A stretch of 64,000 bases of DNA from Candidatus Limnocylindrales bacterium (GCA_035571835.1 DATNBU010000037.1:140753-204752), one strand, 5' to 3'; shown: positions 1,877 to 56,267, numbered from the stretch's first letter. Notes: generated from the letters alone by a model not told the origin. Translations and numbers: made by a program.

Positions 1877-2053
1877 TGCGGAGGCGAATCTATGCTTTCG
1901 GTCACAGTTGCAGCAAACCGGAGTACGGATCGTCCGTGACGGCACGTTACTTTGAACGAACAAAGCTTTCCTGCGAACTGATCGAAGCGAATGATGCAGG
2001 AGTGAGCGCCGTGTTGTGAGGACAGCTCAACTGCAGAGCAAGCTGGCTTCGAA

Positions 2054-14913: not shown

Positions 14914-15070
14914 GCGCGGGTCCTCCGGCATCGGCTCAAAGCCGAAGGCCGTCGGCGAGTAAAATCGGCGGCGAAATGCGTGCTGCGGCGCGCTTCCTGC
15001 GCGTCGCCTGCCGGCGAGTGGACATCGGGCGACGAAGTGGCTAGCAGAAGGGCCTTCCACTGCTCGTTCG

Positions 15071-15146
15071 GTCGCATAGCTCAGCTGGTTAGAGCGCTCG
15101 CCTCACATGCGAGAGGTCCCTGGTTCGAATCCAGGTGCGACCACCA
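15071..15146 (+). tRNA. tRNA-Val (anticodon CAC)
   Basis: GGTCGCATAGCTCAGCTGGTTAGAGCGCTCGCCTCACATGCGAGAGGTCCCTGGTTCGAATCCAGGTGCGACCACCA; acceptor GGTCGCA/TGCGACC; anticodon loop CUCACAU; CCA encoded. Confidence 0.9.
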
Positions 15147-15214
15147 TCTTTGATTCCCTGCACGTCCCGCGAAGTCCGAAACACGAATTGTCAAGGGCGA
15201 ATGGCAGATGCCCC

Positions 15215-15349
15215 GCGGCTCGGATGAAGATGCGGGTGAAGCACATTGTTCCGCTGTCAGAGCAGGCGGTCGCCATTCTCGGGGAACTCGCAGTCAGCGC
15301 GGCGTACAACTTCGCCGAGCATCTGCCGGAGCGGCGCAGAATGATGTAA
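15215..15349 (+). pseudogene. Remnant of a P4-type tyrosine integrase (internal ~45-aa fragment only)
   Basis: ARMKMRVKHIVPLSEQAVAILGEL resembles the conserved P4-integrase segment ERMKMRRPHIVPLSxQAL; no N-terminal or catalytic RHRY region is present. Confidence 0.5.
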
Positions 15350-15612
15350 GCGTGGGCGAGCTACCTGAATGGCCTGAAGGCTGGGGCGGTGGTAGTGCCG
15401 CTGTTTCGCAGCGCCTAGAACCGGAACCAAATATCGATCGCTACTTGCGACGAGGGGGCCGTTCCTCCGATGGCGCAGTCCGTGGTTCGGTATGGCCGAC
15501 CGAAGCGCCGCCAACGCAATTGGCGGAAGATGAGGTCGACGATCGTCGTTTCCACTCCGGCCATGCAGACACACGTTGGGCGGTCTTTTCTATTCCGGTC
15601 CAAAACGACTTG

Positions 15613-17151
15613 CTATGGTTCTGCTTCGACATCCGCCTCGTCCTCCTCCAACTTCTGTCGCAACTCATCTAACGCCGCAACCGCCAGCAGTTCTCGTACG
15701 GGGTAAGCGATGGGTAACATTGGGGTCCGCGGGTGGCTGGCCTCACCTGTCGGAAGCTCAACGCGATTCCCCTCCTCGTCCTTTCGGGACAAAACCACCC
15801 CGTCTGACCTCACCATGCTAAACAGGTCGCCATACCGACGAGGTGCAACGCCGAGGAAGGGTCCCAGCACCATGCGGGCCGCTTGAGCATCCACCGCTGA
15901 ATCCTCTCCCGCATGATGGATCGCATCTCCGTGGAGAGGTAGAGCCTCACTTTTCGGATATGGCTCGATATAGACGATTCGCTTCACTCCCGCCGCAACC
16001 GCGTGCCGAGCGCAGTTGTGACACGGGAAGGTGGTCGTGTAGAGGACCGCGTTTCGGACACTCACGCCAACACGCGCCGCCGACAAGAGTGCCTCCATCT
16101 CCGCATGAACGGTTCGTCCATACTCGGTGATGTCCCGTAGCTTTGATTCGGAAAGCACGCGTGTCGCTTTCTCGACATCATCCACCAAGCCCTGTTCCCT
16201 AAGGGCCTCGGCAGCCCTCGCCGCGATTACTCGGAGACGTGCGGTGTTCGAGTCGAACCCAATGGCGAGGTCTCGCATGTCGGGATTGTCCTCAGCGCTA
16301 TACAGCCCGCCGCCGGGACGTGGGACTTCATTGTGCCCAACGCCGATCAGGTCCCCGGTTTCAGCGATGAGAGCAGCTCCGATCTGTCGTGCGAGCGCGC
16401 CCGAACGAATCGATGCTCCGAACGCTGCGTGCATCCCAAATTCGTCGAGCGTGGGGGTGTGGAAAGGGTTGCCGAATACCAAGTCGAGAAAGCGATGGAG
16501 GGCCGCCTGTGTGGACTCGTAGCTGGAAACATCGATGAAGACATCTGAAAGATGGAATGTATCTCGGGTCTGTTGCCCGAACTTTTTGTCCTCCTCTTCG
16601 TCCTCATCACGTCTCAAAAGCTTCTCCGCCTGCTCTTCGGAGAGACCTTGCGAGACTTGGAGATGGCGCTTGCGCAAGTTGCGTGGGGCGAAAGCGCCGA
16701 TCAGATAGAACCCGGGTCCGTAGATTTGACGTAGGGTCCGGACTTCCTCCGGGCGTTTCAGCGAATCAAGAACGTGAACGTGCCGGGGCAGAGTCGGATC
16801 CGGGTCTTCGATGTCCTCCGTCGCCTGTGCGCGGCGCTCTGAGATGTTGAACACGGCTGACAGCACGAGCGCATTGCAGTAACCGGACCGTCGCCGGAGT
16901 TCGTTTCCGGCGGTCATATATGAGTTGACGCGATTGAAGTAGGGGTCGCCTTCGATCGGCACGCCGAGAATCTCGGCGAAATTCGGAAGGTCGTCGCTCA
17001 GTTTTACAGTGTTGACCTCGTACCGCCGAACGGCGAACAGGTCGCGTAGAACCGACGTGACGAAATCGCGGTTGCAGCCAATTGGTGCGACCAGTCCAAT
17101 GATGAGTTCGGAGTTGGCGGTCGCAAAGAGTGAAACCTCAGATGTCCCCAC
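15613..17151 (-). CDS. AvcD/DCD-like anti-phage deoxycytidylate (dCTP/dCMP) deaminase candidate: C-terminal CMP/dCMP-type zinc deaminase domain after a ~300-aa N-terminal domain
   Basis: HAEMEAL...PCHNCARHAVAAGVKRIVYIEPYP is the H[AC]E...PCxxC zinc-binding signature of dCMP/cytidine deaminases. The 512-aa architecture matches described defensive deaminases. Located in the tRNA island. Confidence 0.7.
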   Translation of the reverse strand: MGTSEVSLFATANSELIIGLVAPIGCNRDFVTSVLRDLFAVRRYEVNTVKLSDDLPNFAEILGVPIEGDPYFNRVNSYMTAGNELRRRSGYCNALVLSAVFNISERRAQATEDIEDPDPTLPRHVHVLDSLKRPEEVRTLRQIYGPGFYLIGAFAPRNLRKRHLQVSQGLSEEQAEKLLRRDEDEEEDKKFGQQTRDTFHLSDVFIDVSSYESTQAALHRFLDLVFGNPFHTPTLDEFGMHAAFGASIRSGALARQIGAALIAETGDLIGVGHNEVPRPGGGLYSAEDNPDMRDLAIGFDSNTARLRVIAARAAEALREQGLVDDVEKATRVLSESKLRDITEYGRTVHAEMEALLSAARVGVSVRNAVLYTTTFPCHNCARHAVAAGVKRIVYIEPYPKSEALPLHGDAIHHAGEDSAVDAQAARMVLGPFLGVAPRRYGDLFSMVRSDGVVLSRKDEEGNRVELPTGEASHPRTPMLPIAYPVRELLAVAALDELRQKLEEDEADVEAEP

Positions 17152-17615
17152 GCGCCTCAGACTATAGAGGTTTGACGGCTTCCTGGCAGCTGAGCTGTGC
17201 GTTTCTCACTGAAGTCGCCGTCCGGACCCTTGCAGCGACGATTTGGCTGGGCTGCTTCTCGTGAGGCGAACAGTAACTTGGCTCACTTCGGGAGGACTGC
17301 CCATGCCACGCTCTTCGACAGCGGAAGCGACACAGCAACAATTCCTTTCAGCAATGGGCGAAGAATGGGCAACGCGGGCAGTCACGACGGCGGAGAAGCC
17401 AGCGTCGCGGATGTGCGTGTCGCCTACGACCTGCTCGAACACATCTTGTCCGAAGTATACGAAGGCAAGGGAAAGTCGCTGAAGGTACTCGCGAAAAAGG
17501 TAAACAAGAAGAAGGGGCCGGTAACATAGATGCGCTTGCCTGCTCTCCATATGGCGATCTCGCTAGGCGTGCGTGATCTTAGTCGCTCAATGGAACCAAC
17601 CCACGGACGCCACCA

Positions 17616-18500
17616 ATGAAATACGACAGATTCAATCGGTTCGAAGGGACGAGCTGGGCATTTTGGCAGTTCAATGAGTACGAAACTCAGATCAACAGCG
17701 CGTACTGGTCTGGGGTCGCGGCAGTTTCTCGCGCCAGCTACGAGATTCGGCGTAGTGCACCGCCCGTCAATGCAAGGGTGGTAATGCATGCCACGGGAAC
17801 GGACGCGCAGCGAATCTCGGCTGAGGGTCCCGCTTTTGTTGCGAATCTCGGCGAATTTCTTAAGTGGAACAGAGCCAGCTTCATTTTGGCAGCAACCGGA
17901 GCCTTTGAAACGTACATCTGGCGAGTCGTGTTAACTGCGTTGATGTCGGATCCTGCCGCGTTGCATGGCAAGTCTCGAGCAATCGATGGAGCGACTTGGC
18001 TGAAGTTGGGACTTCGACCGGACTACAGTGACATCAAGAAGCGGGTTACGAAGGATACGTGGTTCCAGCGCTATGCGGCTGTTCGGAATATCTTTGGTGA
18101 AATTCCAGCGCTGAGTAGTCGTGTTCCAGAATTAGATCAGATCAGAATTTTTCGTAACAACGCTGGGCACGCATTTGGGAGGGATTTGACGGTAGAACCA
18201 AATCTCACGGCGCGAACGACGGAACGCATGCGAACTATTGACGACACAAAGTTTAAGGAGTGGCTAGGTGTAATCTCGAAATCCGCAAAGGCCATCGATT
18301 CAGTGCTTGTCAAGAACCATATCGGTGATTTCGAGCCTATGATTCACTTTCACAACTACTATGAATCTCTTGGTACTGTGAAGCCGGGGATTAGCAGCGC
18401 ATTTGCCTCACAGTACAAGTTGGCCTTGGCAAAAACCGAAGGTCACTCTAAGGGCAACGAATATGCCCTGACACTGATTCGCGCTTACCTGAACGCGTAG
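17616..18500 (+). CDS. Hypothetical protein with an HEPN-like Rx4H motif (Abi_2/AbiD/AbiF-like)
   Basis: 294 aa, low GC; ELDQIRIFRNNAGHAFGRDL fits the HEPN R-x4-H motif (Abi_2 consensus lRNxxAH). Confidence 0.45.
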   Translation: MKYDRFNRFEGTSWAFWQFNEYETQINSAYWSGVAAVSRASYEIRRSAPPVNARVVMHATGTDAQRISAEGPAFVANLGEFLKWNRASFILAATGAFETYIWRVVLTALMSDPAALHGKSRAIDGATWLKLGLRPDYSDIKKRVTKDTWFQRYAAVRNIFGEIPALSSRVPELDQIRIFRNNAGHAFGRDLTVEPNLTARTTERMRTIDDTKFKEWLGVISKSAKAIDSVLVKNHIGDFEPMIHFHNYYESLGTVKPGISSAFASQYKLALAKTEGHSKGNEYALTLIRAYLNA

Positions 18501-18520
18501 CGCGCGACGCTACAGTCGCA

Positions 18521-19303
18521 GTGCCAGCCGTTCTCCCCATGCCTAACTTCCTCAAGCGATTACTGCTGAGGCATGTTTTAAAGAAACCCTCTCCGGATGT
18601 CGTCCCACGAAGCGGTGAGGCGGCGCGACAAGTTGACTGTCGTGTCGCGTACATTCGCCGAACAGAGCCTGAGCCGGAGGTTCTTGTCCAATCCGCGGGA
18701 GCGTCGGAAGTTACGGGCCTTCGTCGAGAGGCGGGTCGATTTCAAGTACCCTTGTCTCTCAGCTACGAAGATTTTTCAGCTGGGGATGTCGAGATTATCC
18801 ACTGGTATGGATTGACGAGTTTTCGATACGATGGGCTGTGGCGTTACGTCCTCGAAGGATTGACCGGCTTCGATAGAGCAAGCTTTCTCTACGATCGCGC
18901 ACGGCAGTTGGGGTTCAATCGGAAGCCACTACTTCGGTACAGCCTAACTGAATTGCTAGATACCCTTGTGGAAGCCGCACAACTTCATCCAACCGAGGAA
19001 CACTCCTCCGTATCGTTGCTAGTTCGCCGTTACGGCGAACGATGCATAGAGCACCCAGACTGGGAAACCGTCCGCGGGAGCACACAATTGTTTCTCGATG
19101 CGCTTGTGAGTTCTGATTCTTTGGAGCGGACAGCCACTGGCTATCGAGTGAAGCCTAAAGCGGTTCTTGCCCTGGCGGAGTTTCAAGAAGCCGAGCGACG
19201 TCACCGTGAGAACTTCCGTACGGCTAGAGCGATGACTCGTCTCACGGTCGTGCTCGTTATCATCGGAATTGTTCAGGCATACGTGACTTGGATGAGTCCG
19301 TAG
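18521..19303 (+). CDS. Hypothetical membrane-anchored protein (single C-terminal TM helix)
   Basis: 260 aa beginning 20 nt after the previous gene; C-terminal RLTVVLVIIGIVQAYVTWMSP; no recognisable domain. Confidence 0.45.
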   Translation: MPAVLPMPNFLKRLLLRHVLKKPSPDVVPRSGEAARQVDCRVAYIRRTEPEPEVLVQSAGASEVTGLRREAGRFQVPLSLSYEDFSAGDVEIIHWYGLTSFRYDGLWRYVLEGLTGFDRASFLYDRARQLGFNRKPLLRYSLTELLDTLVEAAQLHPTEEHSSVSLLVRRYGERCIEHPDWETVRGSTQLFLDALVSSDSLERTATGYRVKPKAVLALAEFQEAERRHRENFRTARAMTRLTVVLVIIGIVQAYVTWMSP

Positions 19304-19375
19304 TCCTCGGTGGCCGCGAGTGCTCACAAGTTGAGATGGTGAGAAACTAGAACCTTCAGGGCGTGGGCAAGCGTT

Positions 19376-20764
19376 TCATCTTGGCGCATCGGCCAAGTAC
19401 TGATTCACGTCGGTGAACAGCGTCCGAATGGATTCCAGATGCTCCCGCCGAATGGCTTCGTTCTTCTCGTTAAGTAGCCCCTCCACTGCAGCCCGACCAG
19501 GTCTTTCAGTCTTCGTGCGGACATCGTTCGCAGGTTGGGCAAAGAATCTGTAGTCGGGAAACCGTCGCCGAAGCTCACCGACGAGTTCTGCTTTGTCGGC
19601 GTCGAGGATTCCTACAACCTTCGAATAGCCCAACTCCGCCAGGACAGCGGCGAGGTGTGCCATATTCCCCGCTCCTCCAACGCCCCAACCGAAGAAGTCA
19701 CCACCGAGTTGCAGATTGAGTTCCGTGAGCACGACGTCATAGAAGACCACATCCTCCTGTCCTTCGACGAGGACTACCCGATCGTCGACGAAGAAAATCT
19801 CTCTCGCGTTGAGTCCGAGCAAGTGAGGATTGTTTTTATCGCGAAGAAGTCCGTAGAGATGTCCGGCCGTTTCAACCGACAACTGGGAGACTCGCACTCC
19901 ATCCTCACGGAGGTGCGCACGCGCAATCGCCATGCCGCTTTCGAGTGCCCTGAGATCGATCAGGTAGGGCGAGTGCGTTGCGATGACGATCTGACGGCTC
20001 GCCGCGTACTCGAATATTATGTTTGCCAACCGCCGCTGAAGAGCCGGGTGGAGTGAGAGTTCCGGTTCATCGATTATGATGAGGTCGCCGTCTTTCGAAT
20101 CATAGAGCGCGTCTACGATGTAGAGGAGGCTCACCAACCCCTCACCTAACCCTTCGCTGCTATGTGTGCCGCGCGCGTCTTGAAACTTGAGAAAATAAGT
20201 CCCTTGGTCAGTCTGATCGATAGTCCAGTTAGGGAGGGGTGAAACGAGTTTGGAGAATAACTCGTCGAAACCTCCTCGGTCGCGATTAACGGCGAAGAGT
20301 CGGTGAGTCAGCTCATGGAGGTTGGTAGATCGAGAGGACGGAAGCCCCCCAGCGTGCTGCGCATAGTCAACTCTGCTCCACGTCGCTTTGCTGAAGTACG
20401 GGTCGAAGAACCGGCGAGACGGCAGAACGAGCAGTCTCCGAAGCGTTATGAGGTCGCCCGTGGTCTCTCGCTCAGTTTCGCTCTGCCCACGTCGGAGGCT
20501 TCGAAGCGTAGCTATACCACCATCGCACGAAGCGACGATTTCCACCCTATCTCCGGCAGGCAGGTTTCGACGGCCTTGCGAGAACGAAGGAGGTTCCGCC
20601 ATTCGGATCGCGCGGAAGGCCTCGATGATCGTCGTCTTGCCCGAGTTGTTTGCGCCAAGGACCACAGTCAGTCCGCTGCCGGGTGTTCCTGTGGGCTTGG
20701 CAAGGTTGAGCTGCTGGGCTGTCTGGAACCCCCGCAGCCCGTGAATGCGAATGTAGTCGAGCAT
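19376..20764 (-). CDS. OLD-family ATP-dependent endonuclease (AAA ATPase + TOPRIM), class-1 stand-alone
   Basis: Walker A GANNSGKTT; Walker B LIIIDEPELSLHP; C-terminal TOPRIM-like VVLVEGQEDVVFY...GILDADK. Confidence 0.8.
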   Translation of the reverse strand: MLDYIRIHGLRGFQTAQQLNLAKPTGTPGSGLTVVLGANNSGKTTIIEAFRAIRMAEPPSFSQGRRNLPAGDRVEIVASCDGGIATLRSLRRGQSETERETTGDLITLRRLLVLPSRRFFDPYFSKATWSRVDYAQHAGGLPSSRSTNLHELTHRLFAVNRDRGGFDELFSKLVSPLPNWTIDQTDQGTYFLKFQDARGTHSSEGLGEGLVSLLYIVDALYDSKDGDLIIIDEPELSLHPALQRRLANIIFEYAASRQIVIATHSPYLIDLRALESGMAIARAHLREDGVRVSQLSVETAGHLYGLLRDKNNPHLLGLNAREIFFVDDRVVLVEGQEDVVFYDVVLTELNLQLGGDFFGWGVGGAGNMAHLAAVLAELGYSKVVGILDADKAELVGELRRRFPDYRFFAQPANDVRTKTERPGRAAVEGLLNEKNEAIRREHLESIRTLFTDVNQYLADAPR

Positions 20765-20928
20765 CCTCCTACTTTGAGCGGCGGTCCCGCACCCGGCGAA
20801 CTGCGTTGTGCGGATTGCGAGGAGGTAGCCGCAATCGCAGCGTTGGGAGGTGGGGGCAACTTTGGGGGCACTCGGCGAGGCAGAACTCCGACTCTTGCCG
20901 CGAGGTCAGGTACTTACCGCATCAATGC

Positions 20929-20950
20929 GATTCCAGGTGCGCACCATCTT
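20929..20950 (+). repeat. attR-like imperfect direct repeat of the tRNA-Val 3' end
   Basis: gattccaggtgcgcaccatctt versus tRNA aatccaggtgcgaccaccatctt. Confidence 0.6.
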
Positions 20951-21068
20951 CTAACGGTCTATTCCGGTCACATAGGTTCATTTCATACCGGACACACTAC
21001 CGGCTCGTTGTCGCCAACCGTTCGACCAGATCTTCGATCCTGGCCCGAAGCGCCGAACGCGATGGGAA

Positions 21069-21515
21069 CTAGTGATCTCGCATTGCGGGGAATCCCTGCC
21101 AGACTTCGCTGTTGCGCACCGCAGCCTGGACGTCGGTTGGAAGCACCGTATCGTCGGTACTCTGGACGACGACGACGCGCTCAGCGTCCTTCACATCCTC
21201 CGGGGAGACGACGTGCGGTCGGTAGCCATCGAGGCGGAATCCGTCGACCGCCAGAGCGAACATCATGCGGTACGGTACGGCGGAATAGCTAGCGATAGCC
21301 GCCCGTGCGATGGCGCGCTCAGGAAGGCCGCGCGCCGATGCGAGCCGGTTGAAATAGGCGGCGGACCACACACTCATGGACACCCCGTTCCGGCACACGA
21401 ATACGACTTGCGCCGAGTCGCGTGCCACTTCGATTGGCTGGGCTTTCGTCGCAAAAGCAGCGGAAGCGGCGAGCAGCAACACGACGCCCACGACGAGAAC
21501 AGATTTGGACTTCAT
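21069..21515 (-). CDS. Secreted hypothetical protein
   Basis: Signal peptide MKSKSVLVVGVVLLLAASAAFA; 148 aa. Confidence 0.5.
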   Translation of the reverse strand: MKSKSVLVVGVVLLLAASAAFATKAQPIEVARDSAQVVFVCRNGVSMSVWSAAYFNRLASARGLPERAIARAAIASYSAVPYRMMFALAVDGFRLDGYRPHVVSPEDVKDAERVVVVQSTDDTVLPTDVQAAVRNSEVWQGFPAMRDH

Positions 21516-21770
21516 GGATCTGAAAACGATCGAAGCGGAGAAATCGTTACAAGGCTCGGTACTGGCGCAACTCGGCCGAATGACCGCCCACGCTTGGGAC
21601 TGCGATATAGAACCACTGGAAGCGGCTCGCAGAACGGCAGAGTTAGAAGACGAGCGGTGCCACACACGTGTCGATCTCTAGCGTCGCGAGCGGGACGAGC
21701 AGTGCTGCGCCCGGCGTACTCACGCATTGACCGCGCGAGCACGCAGGGGCCGCCTCGTAGAGCGAGCTAT

Positions 21771-36269: not shown

Positions 36270-39200
36270 ATGACGAAGCACCTTTTCGCGCTGGCCGCGC
36301 TGCTGGTCGCCGCGAGCGCCACCACGTCCGCCGCAAGTCATGTGATGCCGGTCGGGCATCTGTTCGCGGCAAGCGACTATCCAAACCGCTACTCCTGGGA
36401 CTTCTGCACCCTCGGCGACGGAACCGGACTGAAGATCACGACCGATTTTCTGCAGCCTGATCTCGCCGAGCTCCGGCTAGAGCATCGAAGCGCCGGCGGC
36501 GCGCTGATCTCTCCCGCGCTCGTCATCGCAAGCGGACCGATCGCGGAAAGCGAGCTCTACTGTGGCGACAGCGGCGAGGCGATCGTCAAGTATCGTTTCA
36601 GCAACGACTCGTGCACGCGTTACCGCATGGTTTCTTCCGACCACGTGCACGCCGGCGACGAACGCCAGGCCGCGCCGAACGGAACATGCGACGTCAGCCC
36701 TGTGTTCGCGTTCTGGAGCGACGGCTACACGATGGCGTGGGGCGCGTATCATCCCGATGCACACACCGACATCTGGGCACAGGGCTTCGATCGCGACGGA
36801 AGTGAGCGTTACGCCCCGGTCGTACTCAGCGGCGATCCCTCGCGCTGGCACAGCTGGCCGGTGCTCGCGACGGATACCGACGGGAACACGCTGGTTTCGT
36901 GGGCGGAAGGAAAAGACGAACACACCGACATGGTTGCGGCGGCGATCGGAAAGGACGGCGATCCGGGCGCACCTGTCACGTTCTTTGGCGGCGGCTTCGA
37001 CCTCGTCGGCAACGGGCCGACTCGTGCCGCCGCAACCAACATCGGTTCGTACATCGTGTACTGGCCGGCTTCGGCCGCAGAATCGCTGCTCGGCCAGCAC
37101 CTCGTGATCGAAGAGATTGCGCCGCAGCCGACCACCACGTCCACCACGACATCGACCACGCTCGAGAATGACGTCACGCCGATGTTCGGCGACGAGCGAG
37201 GCTGGGGCCATGGAGCCGCAGTGTGGGAAATCGGACCGCAGCTTGCCGGTGACGGGCACGGCGGCTGGATGGCGTCGTGGAGCGGCAGTTCCGAGAATGC
37301 GTGGCCGTTCCGGCCGCAGTTCCGCTACACATCCGTATCGCACGATTCCGGCCGCCGCTGGTCGCGTCCGGTGCCCGTAGGGAGCGATGTCGCGACGATC
37401 GTCAGCGACGGCGCTGGAGAATGGCTGTCGATTGCGGATGCGTACCACTACCAGGACGTCGAGCCGTATCATTCCCACGTGATTGAGATCGGACGTACGC
37501 AGGGCGGCGGATCGTCGTGGTCGGAGACGCGCGCTGTGGCGGACCTTCCTCGCGATCCCGACGAAGACTGCTCGAACTACATCAGTGCGCTGACGCTTGG
37601 CCGCAACCACAGCGACACGCTGCTCGCGGCGTGGACGCAATCCACCGAATGCGACGACTCGGATCGGAGCACGATCCGGTACGACGTGTATGCGATCCGA
37701 TCCACCGACAGCGGCCAGCTCTGGTCAGCGCCGAAGCTGCTCTATACGGACTATGACAACGTTTTCCGTCGGAACATGAGCTTGACCGCGACGGGACAGG
37801 ACGGATGGGTGCTCAACGTGGCGACGGGAACCGCAATCCGCACGAACGACGGAGGAGTGACATGGACCGAACCGGAAGAGTTCGGATTCCAGGACGCCGC
37901 CTGCGACGCGTCCGGCTACTGCGTGTCGGTGAGCGATGGCGGCGACGGTTCTCACGGATGGGATGCTGACATCTTCGCATCCGTCTCCGAGGACGAAGGC
38001 CGCACGTGGAAACCGCTCGCCGCCGTCAACGACGATGCGCTCATCGATCACTCCCCGGACTACTCGCCGCGGATTGCGACCGACGGCAACGGACGCTGGA
38101 CGGTGGTGTGGGTTTCGCACCGCAATCTCGCCGGCAAACTCGGGTTCGATGCGGATCTTCTCGAAGCCGCCTCGACCGACGGCGGCCGCACGTGGAGCGC
38201 TCCCCGAGCCGTCAGCGTCGCCGCACAGAACGACGGATGGACCTTCGATGACTATCCGGTGCTCGCCTACGGCGCCGGCGCATGGATCGCGCTTTGGCAA
38301 AGGCGAACCGTGACGGAAAACTACGAAGCGTTCCGCAGCGACGCGCGCGTCGCGGTAGCCGACGACAACTGCGGCAACGAAATCGTCGACGGCTTCGACG
38401 AATGCGACGACGGCAATACCGTCAACGGCGACGGCTGCGACAACAACTGTTACGTGACCGCCTGCGGCAACGGCATCGTCACCGAAGGCGAGGAGTGCGA
38501 CGACGGAAACCGGCTCGACGATGATGCGTGCGTTGCGGACTGCGTTTCCGCGAGTTGCGGCGACGGCTACGTCGACAGCGAAGTCGAAGAGTGCGACGAC
38601 GGCAACAGCGACGAGAACGATGCCTGTACATCGGCCTGCACCATTGCGCGCTGCGGCGACGGCTTCGTTGCGCGCGGTAGCGAGGAATGCGATGACGGCA
38701 ATACCAGCAGCGAGGACGACTGCCTCGTCACGTGCGAGGTGGCGCGCTGCGGTGATGGTTTCATTCTCGACGGCGTCGAGGAGTGCGACGACGCCAACAG
38801 CAATACCAGTGACGGATGCCCGGCGAACTGCAAGCAAGCACGCTGCGGTGACGGCTTCTTGTGGCTTGGCGTCGAGGCTTGCGACTCGGGTAGCTCCAGC
38901 GGCGCCTGTCCGGCCAACTGCGGCGTGGCCGGATGCGGCGATGCAAACTCCGACGGAGAGCGCACGGCAGGCGACTCGATGTCGATCCTGCTTCACGCGG
39001 TCGGAAGGCCGAACCCCTGTCCGATGGACCAATGCGACGTGGACGGTAACCTGTGGATCAGCTCGCGCGACGCGCTGATGACGCTCGGATTGTCGGTCGG
39101 GATCGCGTACCCGACGCGCTGTGATCTCGGTCCATGGCTTACCGTCCGCCTTCAGGATGCTCGCACGTTCGGAGCGTTGCAGATCCACGTGGACACTTCG

Positions 39201-39488
39201 GCGGCGCCGCTTTGGGTGTTGTCCCACGCGCCGAACAATTCTGCAGCTTGCGAGTCGTTGCTTACCGGCTCTCTCATCGCCGGCCATGTCGGCGACGGCC
39301 AGCTCGACCTCGGCATGATCGCATCCCAGGGATTCTCCGGACCCGTTGATATCGCGCGATGCCGCGTCGAGGTTACCGGCGATGTACGACCCAGCCAGTT
39401 CGCCGTCGAAATACCGGACGTGACCGACGCCGACGGCGCGCCGGTCTACCCGCCGCCGAAAGTGATGCTGAGAGTGATTGCGGAGTAA
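36270..39488 (+). CDS. Secreted BNR/Asp-box repeat protein with about eight C-terminal Myxococcus cysteine-rich DGxCD repeats and dockerin-like motifs
   Basis: Signal peptide; Asp-box motifs STDSGQLWS, TNDGGVTWT, SEDEGRTWK, STDGGRTWS; repeats CGNEIVDGFDECDDGN.../CGNGIVTEGEECDDGN.../CGDGYVDSEVEECDDGN...; CDVDGNLWISSRDALMTLGLSVG. Confidence 0.75.
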   Translation: MTKHLFALAALLVAASATTSAASHVMPVGHLFAASDYPNRYSWDFCTLGDGTGLKITTDFLQPDLAELRLEHRSAGGALISPALVIASGPIAESELYCGDSGEAIVKYRFSNDSCTRYRMVSSDHVHAGDERQAAPNGTCDVSPVFAFWSDGYTMAWGAYHPDAHTDIWAQGFDRDGSERYAPVVLSGDPSRWHSWPVLATDTDGNTLVSWAEGKDEHTDMVAAAIGKDGDPGAPVTFFGGGFDLVGNGPTRAAATNIGSYIVYWPASAAESLLGQHLVIEEIAPQPTTTSTTTSTTLENDVTPMFGDERGWGHGAAVWEIGPQLAGDGHGGWMASWSGSSENAWPFRPQFRYTSVSHDSGRRWSRPVPVGSDVATIVSDGAGEWLSIADAYHYQDVEPYHSHVIEIGRTQGGGSSWSETRAVADLPRDPDEDCSNYISALTLGRNHSDTLLAAWTQSTECDDSDRSTIRYDVYAIRSTDSGQLWSAPKLLYTDYDNVFRRNMSLTATGQDGWVLNVATGTAIRTNDGGVTWTEPEEFGFQDAACDASGYCVSVSDGGDGSHGWDADIFASVSEDEGRTWKPLAAVNDDALIDHSPDYSPRIATDGNGRWTVVWVSHRNLAGKLGFDADLLEAASTDGGRTWSAPRAVSVAAQNDGWTFDDYPVLAYGAGAWIALWQRRTVTENYEAFRSDARVAVADDNCGNEIVDGFDECDDGNTVNGDGCDNNCYVTACGNGIVTEGEECDDGNRLDDDACVADCVSASCGDGYVDSEVEECDDGNSDENDACTSACTIARCGDGFVARGSEECDDGNTSSEDDCLVTCEVARCGDGFILDGVEECDDANSNTSDGCPANCKQARCGDGFLWLGVEACDSGSSSGACPANCGVAGCGDANSDGERTAGDSMSILLHAVGRPNPCPMDQCDVDGNLWISSRDALMTLGLSVGIAYPTRCDLGPWLTVRLQDARTFGALQIHVDTSAAPLWVLSHAPNNSAACESLLTGSLIAGHVGDGQLDLGMIASQGFSGPVDIARCRVEVTGDVRPSQFAVEIPDVTDADGAPVYPPPKVMLRVIAE

Positions 39489-45260: not shown

Positions 45261-45650
45261 CGCATGAAGAAAATCAGTCCCTGCTGTCCTCCGGTCCTCC
45301 ACGCGACGCTCAGCCAGAGCGAGGCGGCCGAGCTCGCGACCACGCTCAAGGCGCTGGCCGATCCTGTAAGGCTTCGCATTCTCAGTCTCATCGCCGCGCA
45401 GCCCGACGCCGAGGCATGCGTCTGTCATCTGACCGAGCCGATCGGCTTGTCGCAGCCGACGATGACGCATCACCTGCAGATCCTTCACGGAGCGGGGATT
45501 CTCGAACGCGACAAGCGAGGGGCGTGGGTCTACTACAGGATCGTTGCCGATCGTCTCGAAGAAGTGCGTCGCGCGCTCGCCACGCGCATTCCGAAGCAGT
45601 CCGTCGCGAAACACTCCGCCGCTAAGCGCGCCATCGCGAAGCGCGCATGA
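45261..45650 (+). CDS. arsR: ArsR/SmtB family metalloregulator
   Basis: ALADPVRLRILSLIAAQPDAEACVCHLTEPIGLSQPTMTHHLQIL; N-terminal PCCPP. Confidence 0.85.
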   Translation, partial: RMKKISPCCPPVLHATLSQSEAAELATTLKALADPVRLRILSLIAAQPDAEACVCHLTEPIGLSQPTMTHHLQILHGAGILERDKRGAWVYYRIVADRLEEVRRALATRIPKQSVAKHSAAKRAIAKRA

Positions 45651-46348
45651 CCGATCGTGAGACCCCGTCGCTTGCCCGACGGGTCGCAGCCGAAGGAGTC
45701 GGAACGTGTTTCCTGCTCGCCGCGGTGGTCGGTTCGGGAATCATGGCCGAGCGGCTCTTTCCAGGAAGCGTCGGACTCGCGCTGCTCGCGAATGCGATTG
45801 CGACAGGAGCTGCCCTCGCCGCTCTGATCCTGACGTTCGGGCCCATCTCCGGCGCGCACTTCAATCCCGCCGTGACGTTCTCGTCGGTATTCAATCGCGA
45901 GCTGTCGAGCACGGATCTGCCGTTCTATCTGATCGCGCAGCTCGTCGGAGCTGTCGTCGGAGTGATCCTCGCGAACCTGATGTTCGAGCTCCCGGCAATC
46001 TCTCTTTCGCAGCACGCGCGACACGGCTTCGGACAGATCCTGAGTGAATTGGTCGCAACCTTCGGCCTGCTGACGGTGATTCTTGGCTCTTCGCGGTCCA
46101 GATCGTCCGAGGTCGTGGCGATAGCCGTCGCGGCGTACATCACCGCGGCGTACTGGTTCACGGCGTCGACGTCGTTCGCCAATCCGGCGGTCACCATTGC
46201 CCGCTCGCTCAGCGATACGTTCGCTGGCATCGCGCCGGCGGATGTCGCGGGGTTCGTCGGCGTGCAGATGCTGGGAGCGGCTGCGGCGACACTGCTTTTT
46301 CGGTGGCTTATTTCCGGCATCCCCGTCGTTACTCGCATCGGTGAATAG
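45647..46348 (+). CDS. MIP-family aquaglyceroporin (AqpS-like arsenite channel)
   Basis: Two NPA boxes (HFNPAVT, FANPAVT); start overlaps the arsR stop (ATGA). Confidence 0.85.
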   Translation: MTDRETPSLARRVAAEGVGTCFLLAAVVGSGIMAERLFPGSVGLALLANAIATGAALAALILTFGPISGAHFNPAVTFSSVFNRELSSTDLPFYLIAQLVGAVVGVILANLMFELPAISLSQHARHGFGQILSELVATFGLLTVILGSSRSRSSEVVAIAVAAYITAAYWFTASTSFANPAVTIARSLSDTFAGIAPADVAGFVGVQMLGAAAATLLFRWLISGIPVVTRIGE

Positions 46349-54323: not shown

Positions 54324-54980
54324 TCAACGCGTAGCTTCGACGATGTGGCCCCACACGGAAAGGTAGCGGGCTTTCGGCGGAAAGCTCCGAAACTCGAAGC
54401 GCGAAAACCCCGCGCGGTTAAAGGCGTCCGCGAGCTCGGGCGCCGTATAGAGATTCGAAGCCCACCAGCGACCGATCAGCATTCGTGTCAGCGGATTTCG
54501 CCGCGTCATGAACAGTACCAGCGTGCCGCCGTCGTTGAGCCTCGCGCGCAATCCGGTAAGCGCAGCGGCGATCGTATCGCGCGGCACGTACTCGAGCATC
54601 GATGCGGAGACGATCAGATCGTAGTCGCACCAGTCGTCAGGCAATGCGCCAAGCTCGAGCACGTTGGCTTCGGCCAGCTCGATGTCGCGCATGCCGCGCC
54701 TGCGCATGTTTTCGCAAAGGGCATCGAGCATCGCCGGCGTCAGGTCGAAAGCGTGAAACGCGGCGGGCGTGCAGCCACGCCGGTCGAGCGCACCGCGAAG
54801 TGCGAGCGTCAGCGCGCCGGTGCCGCATCCGGCATCGAGAATGCGGAGGTCTGGGCGCACGAGCGCCGAATGCTCGAAGAACGCCCGCAGTCCCTGCGGA
54901 TACCGCATCGCACGGATGAAGCGGGAGTAGGCTTTCTGCCGGCCGGTAAAGAACTCTCGCGCGTCGGCTGTGACGCTCAC
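54324..54980 (-). CDS. Class I SAM-dependent methyltransferase
   Basis: Motif I ILDAGCGTGALT; its GTG start overlaps the TGA of the extended ArsM-like ORF (GTGA). Confidence 0.7.
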   Translation of the reverse strand: MSVTADAREFFTGRQKAYSRFIRAMRYPQGLRAFFEHSALVRPDLRILDAGCGTGALTLALRGALDRRGCTPAAFHAFDLTPAMLDALCENMRRRGMRDIELAEANVLELGALPDDWCDYDLIVSASMLEYVPRDTIAAALTGLRARLNDGGTLVLFMTRRNPLTRMLIGRWWASNLYTAPELADAFNRAGFSRFEFRSFPPKARYLSVWGHIVEATR

Positions 54981-55732
54981 GAATCAGCCTTCGGTTTGCG
55001 CGCCGTGAAGAGCCCGCCCTGCGTCGACGGTGAAGTTCGATAGCCCGTCCAGCCGTGAAACGTGGCTTCGCAGAATCCGGCGTCGCTGAGCATTTTCAGG
55101 AGCGACCGCTCCCAGATTGCGCCTGCAATTCAAGCGGACCAGGCGCCTTTCTGCGAGACCTCTTCTGGAGTGACACCGTCTTCGAGCAGCATGTCGGCCA
55201 TCTGGATGCGGCCGCCGGGGCGCAGCACGCGGAACGCTTCGGCGAGCACTTTCGGCTTGTCGAGACAGAGGTTGAAGACGCCGTTGGAAACCACCACGTC
55301 GACGGATGCGTCGTCGAGCGAAAGGTCGTCGATCTCACCGATGCGGAACTCGACGTTCGCGGAGCCGGCCGCGCGCGCGTTGCGCCGGGCCTTCTCGACC
55401 ATCTCCACTCCGAAATCGATGCCGATCACGCGGCCTTCCGGCGCGACGCGGCGCGCGGCAAGGATGCTGTCGAGTCCGGCGCCCGAGCCGAGATCGAGAA
55501 CGATCTCTCCGTTTCTCAGCGGCTGGAGGGCGATTGGGTTTCCTACGCCGGCGAAGGACTCGACGACGGACCGCGGCAGGGCGTCGATCCCCGTGGCATC
55601 GTAGCCGAGCCGCTTCGCACTCTCCGCGCCGACGAGGAACGACTCTTCGCGTTCGGGCGACAGCGCGACCATTGCGAAGCGCTCGCGGATTTCCGCTTTC
55701 AGCCGCGAAGAGTCTTCTCTTTCGTCGTCCAC
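54977..55732 (-). CDS. ArsM-like arsenite S-adenosylmethyltransferase with an in-frame TGA (candidate selenocysteine) at the conserved GC(I/V)AGA cysteine. The listed ORF 55130..55732 is its N-terminal part
   Basis: VLDLGSGAGLD motif I; VDVVVSNGVFNLCLDKPKVLAEAFRVLRPGGR; then ...QKGAWSA-TGA-IAGAIWERSLLKMLSDAGFCEATFHGWTGY continues in the same frame for 50 codons to a TGA that overlaps the next gene's GTG. Confidence 0.5.
55100..55117 (-). other. Candidate bacterial SECIS-like hairpin downstream of the in-frame UGA
   Basis: mRNA UGA-auugcaggcgcaaucu-GGGAGC-GGUC-GCUCCU; 6-7 bp stem with a GGUC apical loop; GU lies 24-25 nt after UGA. Confidence 0.35.
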
Positions 55733-55733
55733 G

Positions 55734-56267
55734 ATGTGTTCATTACGCCGGGACCAGGCTCAAGACGAGCCGGCTTACAGACGATCATCGGAGTCTGCCC
55801 CCACGCGTGGAACAGTCGAGATTTCACGCAAGTCATTGACCGGCAGGCCGCGTTGTTGGACCCTTGCCGCCGTGGCCGTGGCCGTGGCCGTGGCCGTGGC
55901 CGTGGCCGTGGCTCTCGATACACTTGCGTACGCGCGGCGGCTCCGCGAGGCTGGTTTCAGCGAGCAGCAGGCCGAAGGTCAGGCCCAGGCGCTCGCCGCT
56001 GCCATGACCGATACCCTTGCGACCAAGCAGGATCTTCGCGAACTCGACGTACGCTTCGACGCACGGTTTACGGGAATCGAGACTCGTTTCGATGAGCAGG
56101 AAAAGCGGATGGCTATTCGGTTCGACGAGCACGAAAAACGGATCGAGATGCGTTTCGCGGAGCAGTCAGCACGCTTCGATGCCCGCCTTGCCGATCTCGA
56201 ACGTCGCATCACGCTTCGAATGCTGGCCGGAATTGGCGCGGTCTCGGCGCTGGTCAAACTTCTCTGA
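55734..56267 (+). CDS. DUF1640-family coiled-coil protein with a C-terminal TM helix; N-terminal (Ala-Val)7 encoded by a hexanucleotide repeat
   Basis: LDTLAYARRLREAGFSEQQAEGQAQALAAAMTDTLATKQDLRELDVRFDARF matches the DUF1640 pattern. The real start is probably one of the in-frame GTGs within 55869..55910, not the listed upstream start. Confidence 0.55.
   Translation: MCSLRRDQAQDEPAYRRSSESAPTRGTVEISRKSLTGRPRCWTLAAVAVAVAVAVAVAVALDTLAYARRLREAGFSEQQAEGQAQALAAAMTDTLATKQDLRELDVRFDARFTGIETRFDEQEKRMAIRFDEHEKRIEMRFAEQSARFDARLADLERRITLRMLAGIGAVSALVKLL
55869..55910 (+). repeat. Microsatellite (GCCGTG)x7
   Basis: gccgtggccgtggccgtggccgtggccgtggccgtggccgtg. In frame it encodes (AV)7; on the opposite strand it gives (HG)n. 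Confidence 0.9.

What the first reader, a model, noticed from the sequence alone, without database searches (positions are those of the whole stretch)
54977..55732. In-frame TGA at the conserved As(III)-binding cysteine of an ArsM-like methyltransferase: candidate selenocysteine enzyme
The annotated ORF stops at TGA 55130..55132 after ...SQKGAWSA. Reading through, the frame continues as IAGAIWERSLLKMLSDAGFCEATFHGWTGY... for 50 more codons. In ArsM the equivalent segment is W-x-G-C-(I/V)-(A/S)-G-A, so the TGA sits exactly where the conserved metal-binding Cys lies. About 11 nt downstream the mRNA can form GGGAGC-GGUC-GCUCCU, with GU at +24/25 from the UGA; this fits the bacterial SECIS geometry, including a GGUC apical loop. 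The extended ORF ends in a GTGA overlap with the start of the next methyltransferase gene (54324..54980), as expected for a genuinely translated ORF. A Sec substituting the arsenite-binding Cys would be a notable catalytic variant of ArsM.
Basis: partly seen in the sequence, partly recalled or inferred. Interest (0 to 1): 0.8.

Follow-up and report, generated by a model that had tools for sequence, protein, structure and literature searches.

The report
Selenocysteine codon in ArsM-like methyltransferase
The in-frame TGA is almost certainly a real selenocysteine codon in a 251-residue methyltransferase that gene callers cut to 200 residues, but this selenoprotein family has been known since 2007-2008, so it is a correct catch and not a new kind of enzyme.

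Summary
The minus-strand ORF 55732..55130 stops at TGA 55132..55130. The frame then runs 50 more codons to TGA 54979..54977, which overlaps (GTGA) the start of the next methyltransferase gene.

In 81 related loci, 59 carry TGA at exactly this codon, each followed by an open, conserved frame, and 22 carry TGC or TGT. Substitutions downstream of the TGA fall mostly on third codon positions, so this stretch is translated.

The hairpin GGGAGC-GGUC-GCUCCU (55113..55098) meets all four criteria of the published bacterial SECIS model. It is conserved in the window's clade, with frozen synonymous codons and one compensatory pair. Sister clades keep a hairpin at the same place with different sequences and strong covariation. 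Cys-encoding relatives have none.

The TGA aligns with Cys224 of CmArsM. "Arsenite methyltransferase, UxxG" is already a catalogued selenoprotein family, reported in 39 genomes in 2016, so novelty is low.

One caveat is worth noting. Every Sec-encoding relative has Gly in place of ArsM Cys174, and all 54 that cover the Cys72 position have Val, Thr or Ile there. The window protein has no N-terminal Cys at all. It therefore fails the four-cysteine definition of ArsM, and its substrate is unknown.

No sel genes or tRNA-Sec lie in the window.

The parts
54977..55732 (-). Complete selenoprotein gene: GTG start 55732..55730, 251 codons with Sec at codon 201, and stop TGA 54979..54977.
   Evidence: Full-length Cys homologues P0002 and P0005 (244-245 aa) align end to end.
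55130..55132 (-). UGA codon 201, read as selenocysteine. It aligns with Cys224 of CmArsM.
   Evidence: The same codon is TGA in 59 related loci and TGC/TGT in 22. Alignment to 4fr0, 5evj and 8xt7.
55098..55113 (-). Candidate bSECIS hairpin: 5' arm GGGAGC 55113..55108, loop GGUC 55107..55104, 3' arm GCUCCU 55103..55098.
   Evidence: It meets the four criteria of the published model: 6 bp stem, 4-nt loop starting GG then U, 22 nt from the UGA, MFE -8.7 kcal/mol. In the window's clade 89% of pairs are kept, against 52-68% in slid controls, and there is one compensatory GC to AU change. The codons CGG, TCG and CTC are frozen.
54980..55129 (-). The 50 codons downstream of the Sec codon (helix plus the last two beta strands of the methyltransferase fold), missed by gene callers.
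   Evidence: Substitutions against 12 relatives at codon positions 1/2/3 are 101/82/256. The AlphaFold model of Cys homologue P0002 has helix 205-215 and strands 218-229 and 234-242 after the Cys.
55130..55732 (-). The truncated 200-aa gene call found in public annotation.
   Evidence: P0001 is 100% identical. Cluster mate HXC52524.1 is annotated as a 200-aa 'methyltransferase domain-containing protein'.
54324..54980 (-). Second SAM-dependent methyltransferase, coupled by a GTGA stop/start overlap.
   Evidence: Pfam Methyltransf_12/25/23. The same arrangement occurs in L001. A 56%-identical homologue lies next to the Sec gene in L091.

Best explanation
The gene at 55732..54977 (minus strand) encodes a 251-residue, single-domain, class I SAM-dependent methyltransferase. 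Codon 201 (UGA) is decoded as selenocysteine.

Shown here:
- The UGA is conserved.
- Cysteine occupies the same position in relatives.
- The downstream frame is under purifying selection.
- A conserved hairpin that fits the bacterial SECIS model begins 16 nt after the UGA.

Inferred: SelB carrying Sec-tRNA(Sec) binds this hairpin on the translating ribosome and inserts Sec, after which translation continues to the GTGA overlap with the next methyltransferase gene.

Sec201 occupies the position of Cys224 of CmArsM, one of the two residues that hold the metalloid next to the SAM methyl group. It is therefore most likely the substrate-binding or nucleophilic residue of the active site.

The protein belongs to the already catalogued 'arsenite methyltransferase (PRK11873/NF008823), UxxG' selenoprotein family. 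It has Val and Gly in place of ArsM Cys72 and Cys174 and has no counterpart of Cys44. Its real substrate is therefore not established. It may be a methylated arsenical, another soft metalloid or chalcogen, or something else.
For: - Observation.
- Truncated gene calls: 19 of 19 short homologue gene calls inspected end exactly at W-S-[A/D/N]. Full-length homologues have Cys there, followed by IAGAIWERSL...FHGWTGYRTS.
- Sec/Cys pairing: 59 loci with TGA and 22 with TGC/TGT at the aligned codon, and the frame stays open 41-307 codons after the TGA.
- Translation of the tail: codon-position bias of 101/82/256 downstream.
- Fold: the tail contains the last helix and two strands of the fold in the model of P0002 (pLDDT 88.7).
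- SECIS criteria.
- Structure downstream of the codon: the mean-MFE profile dips only in TGA loci (-14 against about -8 kcal/mol), with none in Cys loci; the per-locus stability z-scores differ between TGA and Cys loci, Mann-Whitney p = 1e-4.
- Covariation in sister clades: 96% and 99% of pairs kept, and 0 of 500 shuffles reach the observed score.
- Window's own clade: 89% of pairs kept, one compensatory change, and frozen codons CGG 11/11, TCG 14/14 and CTC 13/13 against a 28-33% background.
- Active-site position: U201 aligns with CmArsM Cys224.
- Family: best NCBIfam hits are ArsM selenoprotein families and NF008823. The closest folds are CrArsM, CmArsM and hAS3MT.
- UGA is a normal stop: about half of the window's ORFs end in TGA.
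- Literature.
Against: - No selA, selB, selD or tRNA-Sec was found in the 64-kb window. Thirty of the largest ORFs were scanned, and tRNA searches found none. The rest of the genome could not be searched.
- No second selenoprotein candidate was found in the window.
- The window's own hairpin is not exceptional in folding energy.
- No Rfam family matches the region.
- Covariation within the window's own clade rests on a single compensatory pair.
- There is no experimental evidence for Se incorporation in this protein.
- The score against NF008823 (221 bits) is below its curated cut-off (263).
Confidence: 0.9

Rival explanations
1. The TGA is a true stop. The gene is either a nonsense pseudogene or encodes a functional 200-residue truncated methyltransferase, and the downstream 50 codons are untranslated spacer.
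For: Gene callers and GenBank annotate a 200-aa product. No Sec machinery was seen in the window.
Against: The TGA is conserved at the same codon in 59 loci from diverse metagenomes, with no frameshifts or extra stops for 41 or more codons. Third-position bias is 256 against 101 and 82 downstream. The tail supplies the last two beta strands of the Rossmann-like sheet. The stop of the extended frame makes a GTGA overlap with the next gene in both the window and L001.
Confidence: 0.03
2. The UGA is read through, but not as selenocysteine. A near-cognate tRNA would insert Cys, Trp or Arg, or the lineage has reassigned the codon.
For: The Sec machinery is unverified for this genome. A few homologues carry Trp (P0011) or Gly (P0010, P0026) at the position.
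Against: About half of the ORFs in the window end in TGA, so UGA is a normal stop here. A conserved hairpin that fits the bSECIS model follows the UGA only in TGA-bearing relatives. The position is Cys in relatives, which is the classic Sec/Cys signature, and the family is catalogued as a selenoprotein.
Confidence: 0.04
3. The TGA is a sequencing or assembly error for TGC or TGT.
For: It differs from a Cys codon by a single base.
Against: The identical truncated product occurs in four cluster members from independent JGI, NCBI and Logan/ENA assemblies. It also occurs in the 90%-identical L001 and in 58 further loci.
Confidence: 0.01
4. This rival concerns function. The protein is a bona fide arsenite methyltransferase in which Sec simply replaces Cys224.
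For: ArsM and AS3MT are the closest matches by sequence and by fold. The literature names the family arsenite methyltransferase. As(III) could enter as a glutathione complex and need fewer protein ligands (inference).
Against: Cys72 is Val63 and Cys174 is Gly151, and there is no Cys anywhere in residues 1-155. A review states that all AsMTs have four conserved cysteines, that all four are required for As(III) methylation, and that Cys174/Cys224 form the metalloid site. All 59 TGA loci have Gly at the Cys174 position, and the 54 that cover the Cys72 position lack Cys there. The 18 loci that carry both cysteines never use Sec. No ars genes lie next to the gene in the window or in L001 and L089-L093. 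The NF008823 score is below its cut-off.
Confidence: 0.3

Closest known systems
'Arsenite (S-adenosyl)methyltransferase' selenoprotein family (PRK11873 / NF008823, Sec motif UxxG). Sources: Fomenko et al. 2007 as cited in PMC13188914; Zhang & Gladyshev 2008, PMC2398784; Peng et al. 2016, PMC5029168.
   Same: The closest profile apart from the fusion families is the same (NF008823). The motif is the same, U-I-A-G. The protein is a single domain with one Sec. Sec/Cys pairing occurs at this position.
   Different: The score is 221 bits against a curated cut-off of 263. This gene and its GenBank twin HXC52524.1 are annotated as truncated 200-aa proteins. I could not retrieve the reference sequence WP_011987699.1 to check whether it also lacks the other ArsM cysteines.
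As(III) SAM methyltransferases with solved structures: CmArsM (4fr0, 4fs8, 4fsd), CrArsM (5evj), human AS3MT (8xt7).
   Same: Class I methyltransferase fold with the same local motifs (VLDLGxGxG, SNxVxNL, xC[IL][AG]GA). Sec201 aligns with Cys224. These are the best fold matches, with TM 0.63-0.72.
   Different: Val replaces Cys72 and Gly replaces Cys174. There is no Cys44 counterpart. The protein has 251 residues against the 377-387-residue crystallised CmArsM and CrArsM chains, so it has no counterpart of their C-terminal part. There is no ars operon context.
NCBIfam fusion selenoproteins: NF041537 (ArsM/AhpD), NF041536 (ArsM/DUF2284) and NF047649 (methyltransferase/UXPK-star).
   Same: These give the highest-scoring profile matches (252, 225 and 231 bits) over model positions about 7-251, that is, over their methyltransferase domain with the same UxxG Sec.
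   Different: The window protein ends at residue 251 with no second domain and no second Sec, and all scores are far below the cut-offs (460-575). Related fusions do occur in this family: L049 carries a CMD/AhpD-like domain and L013 an NnrU-like membrane domain.
Bacterial SECIS consensus model (as summarised in PMC13188914, section 5).
   Same: A hairpin inside the coding sequence just after the UGA, with a 6-bp stem, a 4-nt loop GGUC (G, then G/U), 22 nt between UGA and loop, and MFE -8.7 kcal/mol.
   Different: It is short and has no bulged U. It shows no sequence similarity to the E. coli fdhF element (from my own knowledge; no comparison was run here). SelB binding was not tested.

Membership tests
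Bacterial selenoprotein gene | In-frame UGA followed by a conserved, translated reading frame | tested here: met
   The frame is open for 50 codons. Codon-position differences are 101/82/256, and the tail is conserved in 59 loci.
Bacterial selenoprotein gene | Homologues with Cys aligned to the UGA | tested here: met
   22 loci carry TGC or TGT at the aligned codon. P0002 and P0005 have Cys there.
Bacterial selenoprotein gene | bSECIS hairpin: 3-9 nt loop, 4-16 bp stem, G in the first two loop positions, 16-37 nt from the UGA, MFE <= -7.5 kcal/mol | tested here: met
   6 bp stem, loop GGUC, 22 nt from the UGA, MFE -8.7 kcal/mol. Conservation and covariation are shown.
Bacterial selenoprotein gene | selA, selB, selC (tRNA-Sec) and selD in the same genome | not testable with these tools
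   None was found in the 64-kb window or in the fetched loci. The source contig (712 kb) and the related MAGs could not be read beyond the flanks.
Bacterial selenoprotein gene | Selenium incorporated at the UGA position | not testable with these tools
   This needs 75Se labelling or mass spectrometry.
ArsM-like selenoprotein family (NF008823 / PRK11873, UxxG) | Sec in a U-x-x-G motif at the ArsM Cys224 position | tested here: met
   The motif is U201-I-A-G. It aligns to Cys224 of 4fr0. The motif is listed in PMC13188914, Table 1.
ArsM-like selenoprotein family (NF008823 / PRK11873, UxxG) | Score at or above the curated NF008823 cut-off | tested here: not met
   221.4 bits against a cut-off of 263 (with Cys substituted for Sec). 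It is still the best match among families that are not fusions.
As(III) SAM methyltransferase (ArsM / AS3MT) | Class I SAM-dependent methyltransferase fold | tested here: met
   Pfam Methyltransf_31/25/11. The model of homologue P0002 has a seven-strand layout, and ArsM structures are the top fold hits.
As(III) SAM methyltransferase (ArsM / AS3MT) | Four conserved cysteines (CmArsM Cys44, Cys72, Cys174, Cys224) | tested here: not met
   Only the Cys224 position is kept, as Sec. Val63 aligns with Cys72 and Gly151 with Cys174, and there is no Cys in residues 1-155. The definition is from PMC6138428.
As(III) SAM methyltransferase (ArsM / AS3MT) | Arsenic-resistance gene context (arsR, arsC, acr3/arsB) | tested here: not met
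   The neighbours are a second methyltransferase, CrcB, RNase HII, NhaA, PTS EIIA and an acetyl-CoA hydrolase. The only loosely related gene is a MIP channel about 9 kb away.
As(III) SAM methyltransferase (ArsM / AS3MT) | Methylation of As(III) or MAs(III) in vitro | not testable with these tools
   This needs an enzyme assay.
NCBIfam fusion selenoproteins NF041537, NF041536 and NF047649 | A second domain carrying a second Sec, and a score above the cut-off | tested here: not met
   The protein ends at residue 251. Scores are 252, 225 and 231 bits against cut-offs of 510, 575 and 460, and only the methyltransferase part of each model is matched.

The most novel reading that the evidence does not exclude
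The Sec-containing 'ArsM' proteins may form a separate clade of single-selenol methyltransferases. They have lost the ArsM cysteines equivalent to Cys72 and Cys174: all 59 Sec-encoding loci sampled have Gly at the Cys174 position, all 54 that cover the Cys72 position have Val, Thr or Ile there, and none of the 18 loci that carry both cysteines uses Sec. On this reading they are not arsenite methyltransferases at all. The lone selenolate would bind or attack a different substrate, for example a selenium or tellurium species, a methylated arsenical or a thiol. In some lineages they may work with a partner methyltransferase: the GTGA-coupled gene at 54324..54980, its 56%-identical homologue beside the Sec gene in L091, and the NnrU-like fusion in L013. 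If so, the family name used in the selenoprotein catalogues would be a misnomer.
Probability: 0.35. Interest if true: 0.55.

Novelty: new member of a known kind. Interest (0 to 1): 0.3.

Why it matters
In practical terms, this gene and its GenBank twin HXC52524.1 (Candidatus Limnocylindrales MAG), along with most of its closest relatives in public protein collections, are annotated as 197-203-residue fragments. These fragments lack the active-site residue and the last two strands of the fold. Re-annotating them restores a complete enzyme and flags the lineage as a likely selenocysteine user.

In scientific terms, the family itself is not new. What may be useful is the observation that the Sec forms lack the other arsenic-binding cysteines. 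This means the catalogued name 'arsenite methyltransferase' is untested for this clade, and a simple enzyme assay could show what a lone active-site selenol does in a SAM-dependent methyltransferase.

Tried and rejected
1. The search for related loci on genome contigs with the single protein returned only distant methyltransferases (24-32% identity).
2. The look-up of encoding contigs for P0001 found no record, so the 712-kb source contig could not be read.
3. Rfam gave no match in this region at gathering thresholds, only the window's two tRNAs, and only chance-level hits for 55040..55160 at permissive thresholds. Rfam appears to have no model that matches this element.
4. The thermodynamic test of the window's hairpin alone was not significant (z = 0.04, z = -0.67). 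I therefore relied on comparative evidence.
5. A search for a second TGA-interrupted coding ORF in the window gave only one notable hit, 11424, which is simply two adjacent genes in the same frame. The thresholds of that screen were also strict enough to miss the ArsM-like site itself (downstream GC3 is 0.72).
6. Conserved neighbours: tblastn of seven window neighbours against all loci fetched up to that point found them only in the near-identical L001. Contexts elsewhere vary.
7. A literature search for Limnocylindria together with selenocysteine found nothing. Fomenko et al. 2007 is not held in the library, so what exactly was 'experimentally verified' for this family could not be checked. 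From memory, it was the catalytic role of the Cys in the mammalian homologue and not Sec insertion in a bacterial protein.
8. UGA reassignment was rejected because about half of the ORFs end in TGA.

Full report
**Observation**

On the minus strand an ORF starts at GTG 55732..55730 and encodes 200 residues ending ...SQKGAWSA. It stops at TGA 55132..55130. The same frame continues for 50 codons (IAGAIWERSLLKMLSDAGFCEATFHGWTGYRTSPSTQGGLFTARKPKADS) to TGA 54979..54977. That stop overlaps GTG 54980..54978, the start of a second methyltransferase ORF (54980..54324), as GTGA. The hairpin GGGAGC-GGUC-GCUCCU lies at 55113..55098. The GU of the loop is indeed at +24/+25.

**Is the UGA a sense codon?**

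The read-through protein, with Cys in place of the stop, was searched against 5.8 billion proteins.
- It found the identical 200-residue gene call (P0001).
- Most of the 120 best hits were 197-203 residues long and covered only about 78% of the query.
- A handful were full-length proteins of 244-253 residues.

In the alignment, all 19 short homologues inspected end exactly at W-S-[A/D/N], the residue before the window's TGA. The full-length ones continue with C (P0002, P0005), G or W, followed by IAGAIWERSL...FHGWTGYRTS.

I then fetched 80 metagenomic loci and one syntenic, 90%-identical NCBI locus (L001), and located the aligned codon in each.
- 59 loci have TGA, with the frame staying open for 41-307 further codons and a conserved tail.
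- 22 loci have TGC or TGT.

In 12 relatives from the window's own clade, differences from the window in the 44 codons after the TGA fall at codon positions 1/2/3 as 101/82/256. That is the signature of a translated sequence under purifying selection.

An AlphaFold model of the Cys homologue P0002 (pLDDT 88.7) places a helix and the last two beta strands of the methyltransferase sheet after the Cys. A product ending at residue 200 would therefore lack part of the fold.

About half of the window's ORFs end in TGA, so UGA is an ordinary stop in this organism and has not been reassigned. Four cluster members from independent assemblies share the same truncated product, which excludes a sequencing error.

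**SECIS**

The published bacterial model (PMC13188914) asks for four things: a 3-9 nt loop on a 4-16 bp stem, a G in the first two loop positions (usually followed by G or U), 16-37 nt between the UGA and the loop, and MFE <= -7.5 kcal/mol. The window element has a 6-bp stem, the loop GGUC, 22 nt of spacing and -8.7 kcal/mol, so all four are met.

Taken alone, the hairpin is not unusually stable for this 63% GC sequence. The comparative evidence is what counts:
- **Folding-energy profile.** Averaged over loci and aligned on the codon, the profile dips from about -8 to -14 kcal/mol just after the codon in TGA loci. There is no dip in Cys loci, and the per-locus stability z-scores differ between the two sets (Mann-Whitney p = 1e-4).
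- **First sister clade.** It keeps a 7-bp hairpin at columns 13-19/25-31 with different sequences (GCCUGC/GCAGGC, GCUCUGC/GCAGAGC, CUCUCC/GGAGAG). 96% of cells are paired, 28 cells have changes on both sides, 0 of 500 shuffles reach the observed score, and slid controls give 29-50% pairing.
- **Second sister clade.** It keeps an 8-bp hairpin with 99% of cells paired, and again 0 of 500 shuffles reach the score.
- **The window's own clade (14 sequences).** The proposed pairs are kept in 89% of cells against 52-68% in slid controls. There is one compensatory GC to AU change (L016) and seven AU to GU changes.
- **Frozen codons.** The codons forming the loop and 3' arm do not vary: Arg CGG 11/11, Ser TCG 14/14 and Leu CTC 13/13, against 28-33% usage elsewhere in the same genes. 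Flanking Gly and Ala codons vary freely.

No Rfam family matches the region.

**What the protein is**

- Pfam finds a class I SAM-dependent methyltransferase domain.
- NCBIfam's best hits are three ArsM-type selenoprotein fusion families (NF041537, NF047649 and NF041536; only their methyltransferase part is matched) and NF008823 'arsenite methyltransferase' at 221 bits, below its 263-bit cut-off.
- The closest solved structures by sequence and by fold are CrArsM, human AS3MT and CmArsM.
- In the ungapped alignment to 4fr0, U201 aligns with Cys224. However, Val63 aligns with Cys72 and Gly151 with Cys174, and there is no cysteine anywhere in residues 1-155, so Cys44 has no counterpart.

A review of arsenic methyltransferases (PMC6138428) states that all AsMTs have these four cysteines, that all four are needed for As(III) methylation, and that Cys174/Cys224 form the metalloid site.

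Across the 81 loci the pattern is strict:
- All 59 TGA loci have Gly at the Cys174 position. All 54 that cover the Cys72 position have Val, Thr or Ile there.
- The 18 loci that carry Cys at both positions always encode Cys, never Sec, at position 224.
- Four loci are Cys versions of the Sec-type clade.
- The window's Cys156 (in the motif NLC) is nearly invariant in its own clade but not across the Sec clade.
- One sister clade has a Cys two residues before the Cys72 position (F/Y-C-G-V-G-N-P).

The protein nevertheless fails the defining test for ArsM, and its substrate is open.

**Context**

- The neighbours are a second methyltransferase (GTGA-coupled), CrcB, a HAD-like ORF, RNase HII and NhaA on one side, and PTS EIIA and an acetyl-CoA hydrolase on the other.
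- There are no ars genes.
- The whole arrangement is shared only with L001.
- A 56%-identical homologue of the second methyltransferase sits next to the Sec gene in the unrelated locus L091. In L013 the Sec methyltransferase is fused to an NnrU-like membrane domain, and in L049 to a CMD/AhpD-like domain.
- Other contexts vary and include several metal or redox genes (MerR, ArsR-type HTH, AhpC/redoxin, Cu oxidase, RND efflux).
- No selA, selB or selD was found among the 30 largest window ORFs scanned. No tRNA-Sec was found, and no second TGA-split gene.
- A cluster mate is annotated as coming from a Candidatus Limnocylindrales (Chloroflexota) MAG. This assignment is tentative.

**What is already known**

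- 'Arsenite S-adenosylmethyltransferase (PRK11873, arsM)' is listed as a selenoprotein family in the GOS analysis, with 8 Sec and 245 Cys sequences (PMC2398784).
- It was found in 39 sequenced bacteria in 2016 (PMC5029168).
- The 2026 catalogue lists it with the motif UxxG and model NF008823 under 'experimentally verified', citing Fomenko et al. 2007 (PMC13188914).
- The window's U-I-A-G fits that motif.
- I could not read Fomenko et al..

**Verdict**

This is a genuine, mis-annotated selenoprotein gene (confidence about 0.9) and a new member of a known family. Its interest is modest. The residual novelty lies in the finding that the Sec clade lacks the other arsenic-binding cysteines, so the family's assumed function is untested. 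The missing piece of evidence is the Sec machinery of the genome, which these tools could not reach.

Noticed in passing
window 54324..54980 (-); L091 8780..9451; L013 about 3750..4520: The second methyltransferase, coupled to the Sec gene by a GTGA overlap, has a 56%-identical homologue lying convergently next to the Sec methyltransferase in an unrelated metagenomic locus (L091). In L013 the Sec methyltransferase is fused to an NnrU-like membrane domain. This suggests a recurrent partnership of the Sec enzyme with a second protein.
   Followed up: partly
window 55869..55912: A perfect hexanucleotide tandem repeat, (GCCGTG) x 7.3, lies about 140 nt upstream of the selenoprotein start. It reads as His-Gly or Ala-Val repeats in the overlapping ORFs on the two strands.
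   Followed up: no
window 56076..56164, inside ORF 55734..56267 (+): A 33-nt repeat x 2.7 (73% matches) lies inside a 177-aa ORF that has a weak CCDC90-like coiled-coil match. The ORF is not conserved in the syntenic locus L001.
   Followed up: partly
window 45647..46348 (+): A MIP/aquaglyceroporin-family channel lies about 9 kb from the ArsM-like gene. Such channels can conduct arsenite, but no other ars gene is nearby.
   Followed up: no
window about 15070..21700: Directly after tRNA-Val (15070..15146), several ORFs have clearly lower third-position GC (0.63-0.70 against about 0.8 elsewhere). They include a 512-aa protein with a cytidine/dCMP deaminase domain and a 462-aa AAA_21/AAA_15 (AbiEii-like) ATPase. 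This may be an integrated island or a defence locus.
   Followed up: no
proteins P0010, P0026 (Gly) and P0011 (Trp); locus L044 (TGC): A few close relatives from the Sec clade carry Gly, Trp or Cys at the Sec position. Each is one base away from TGA (GGA, TGG, TGC). They could be real replacements or assembly errors.
   Followed up: no
loci L018, L026, L033, L035, L047, L049, L056, L063, L069, L081, L086: One Sec sister clade has F/Y-C-G-V-G-N-P, that is, a Cys two residues before the position of ArsM Cys72. This Cys might substitute for Cys72. The window's clade has Ala there.
   Followed up: no
L089/L090 6924..7874: In one relative, a 251-aa AhpC/redoxin-family gene and a 58-aa ORF lie directly upstream of the Sec methyltransferase on the same strand. 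This may be a redox partner, or a second gene split by a TGA.
   Followed up: no
window 2..1963 (-) and 36270..39488 (+): Two large paralogous secreted-looking proteins carry BNR-repeat and DUF4215 domains.
   Followed up: no
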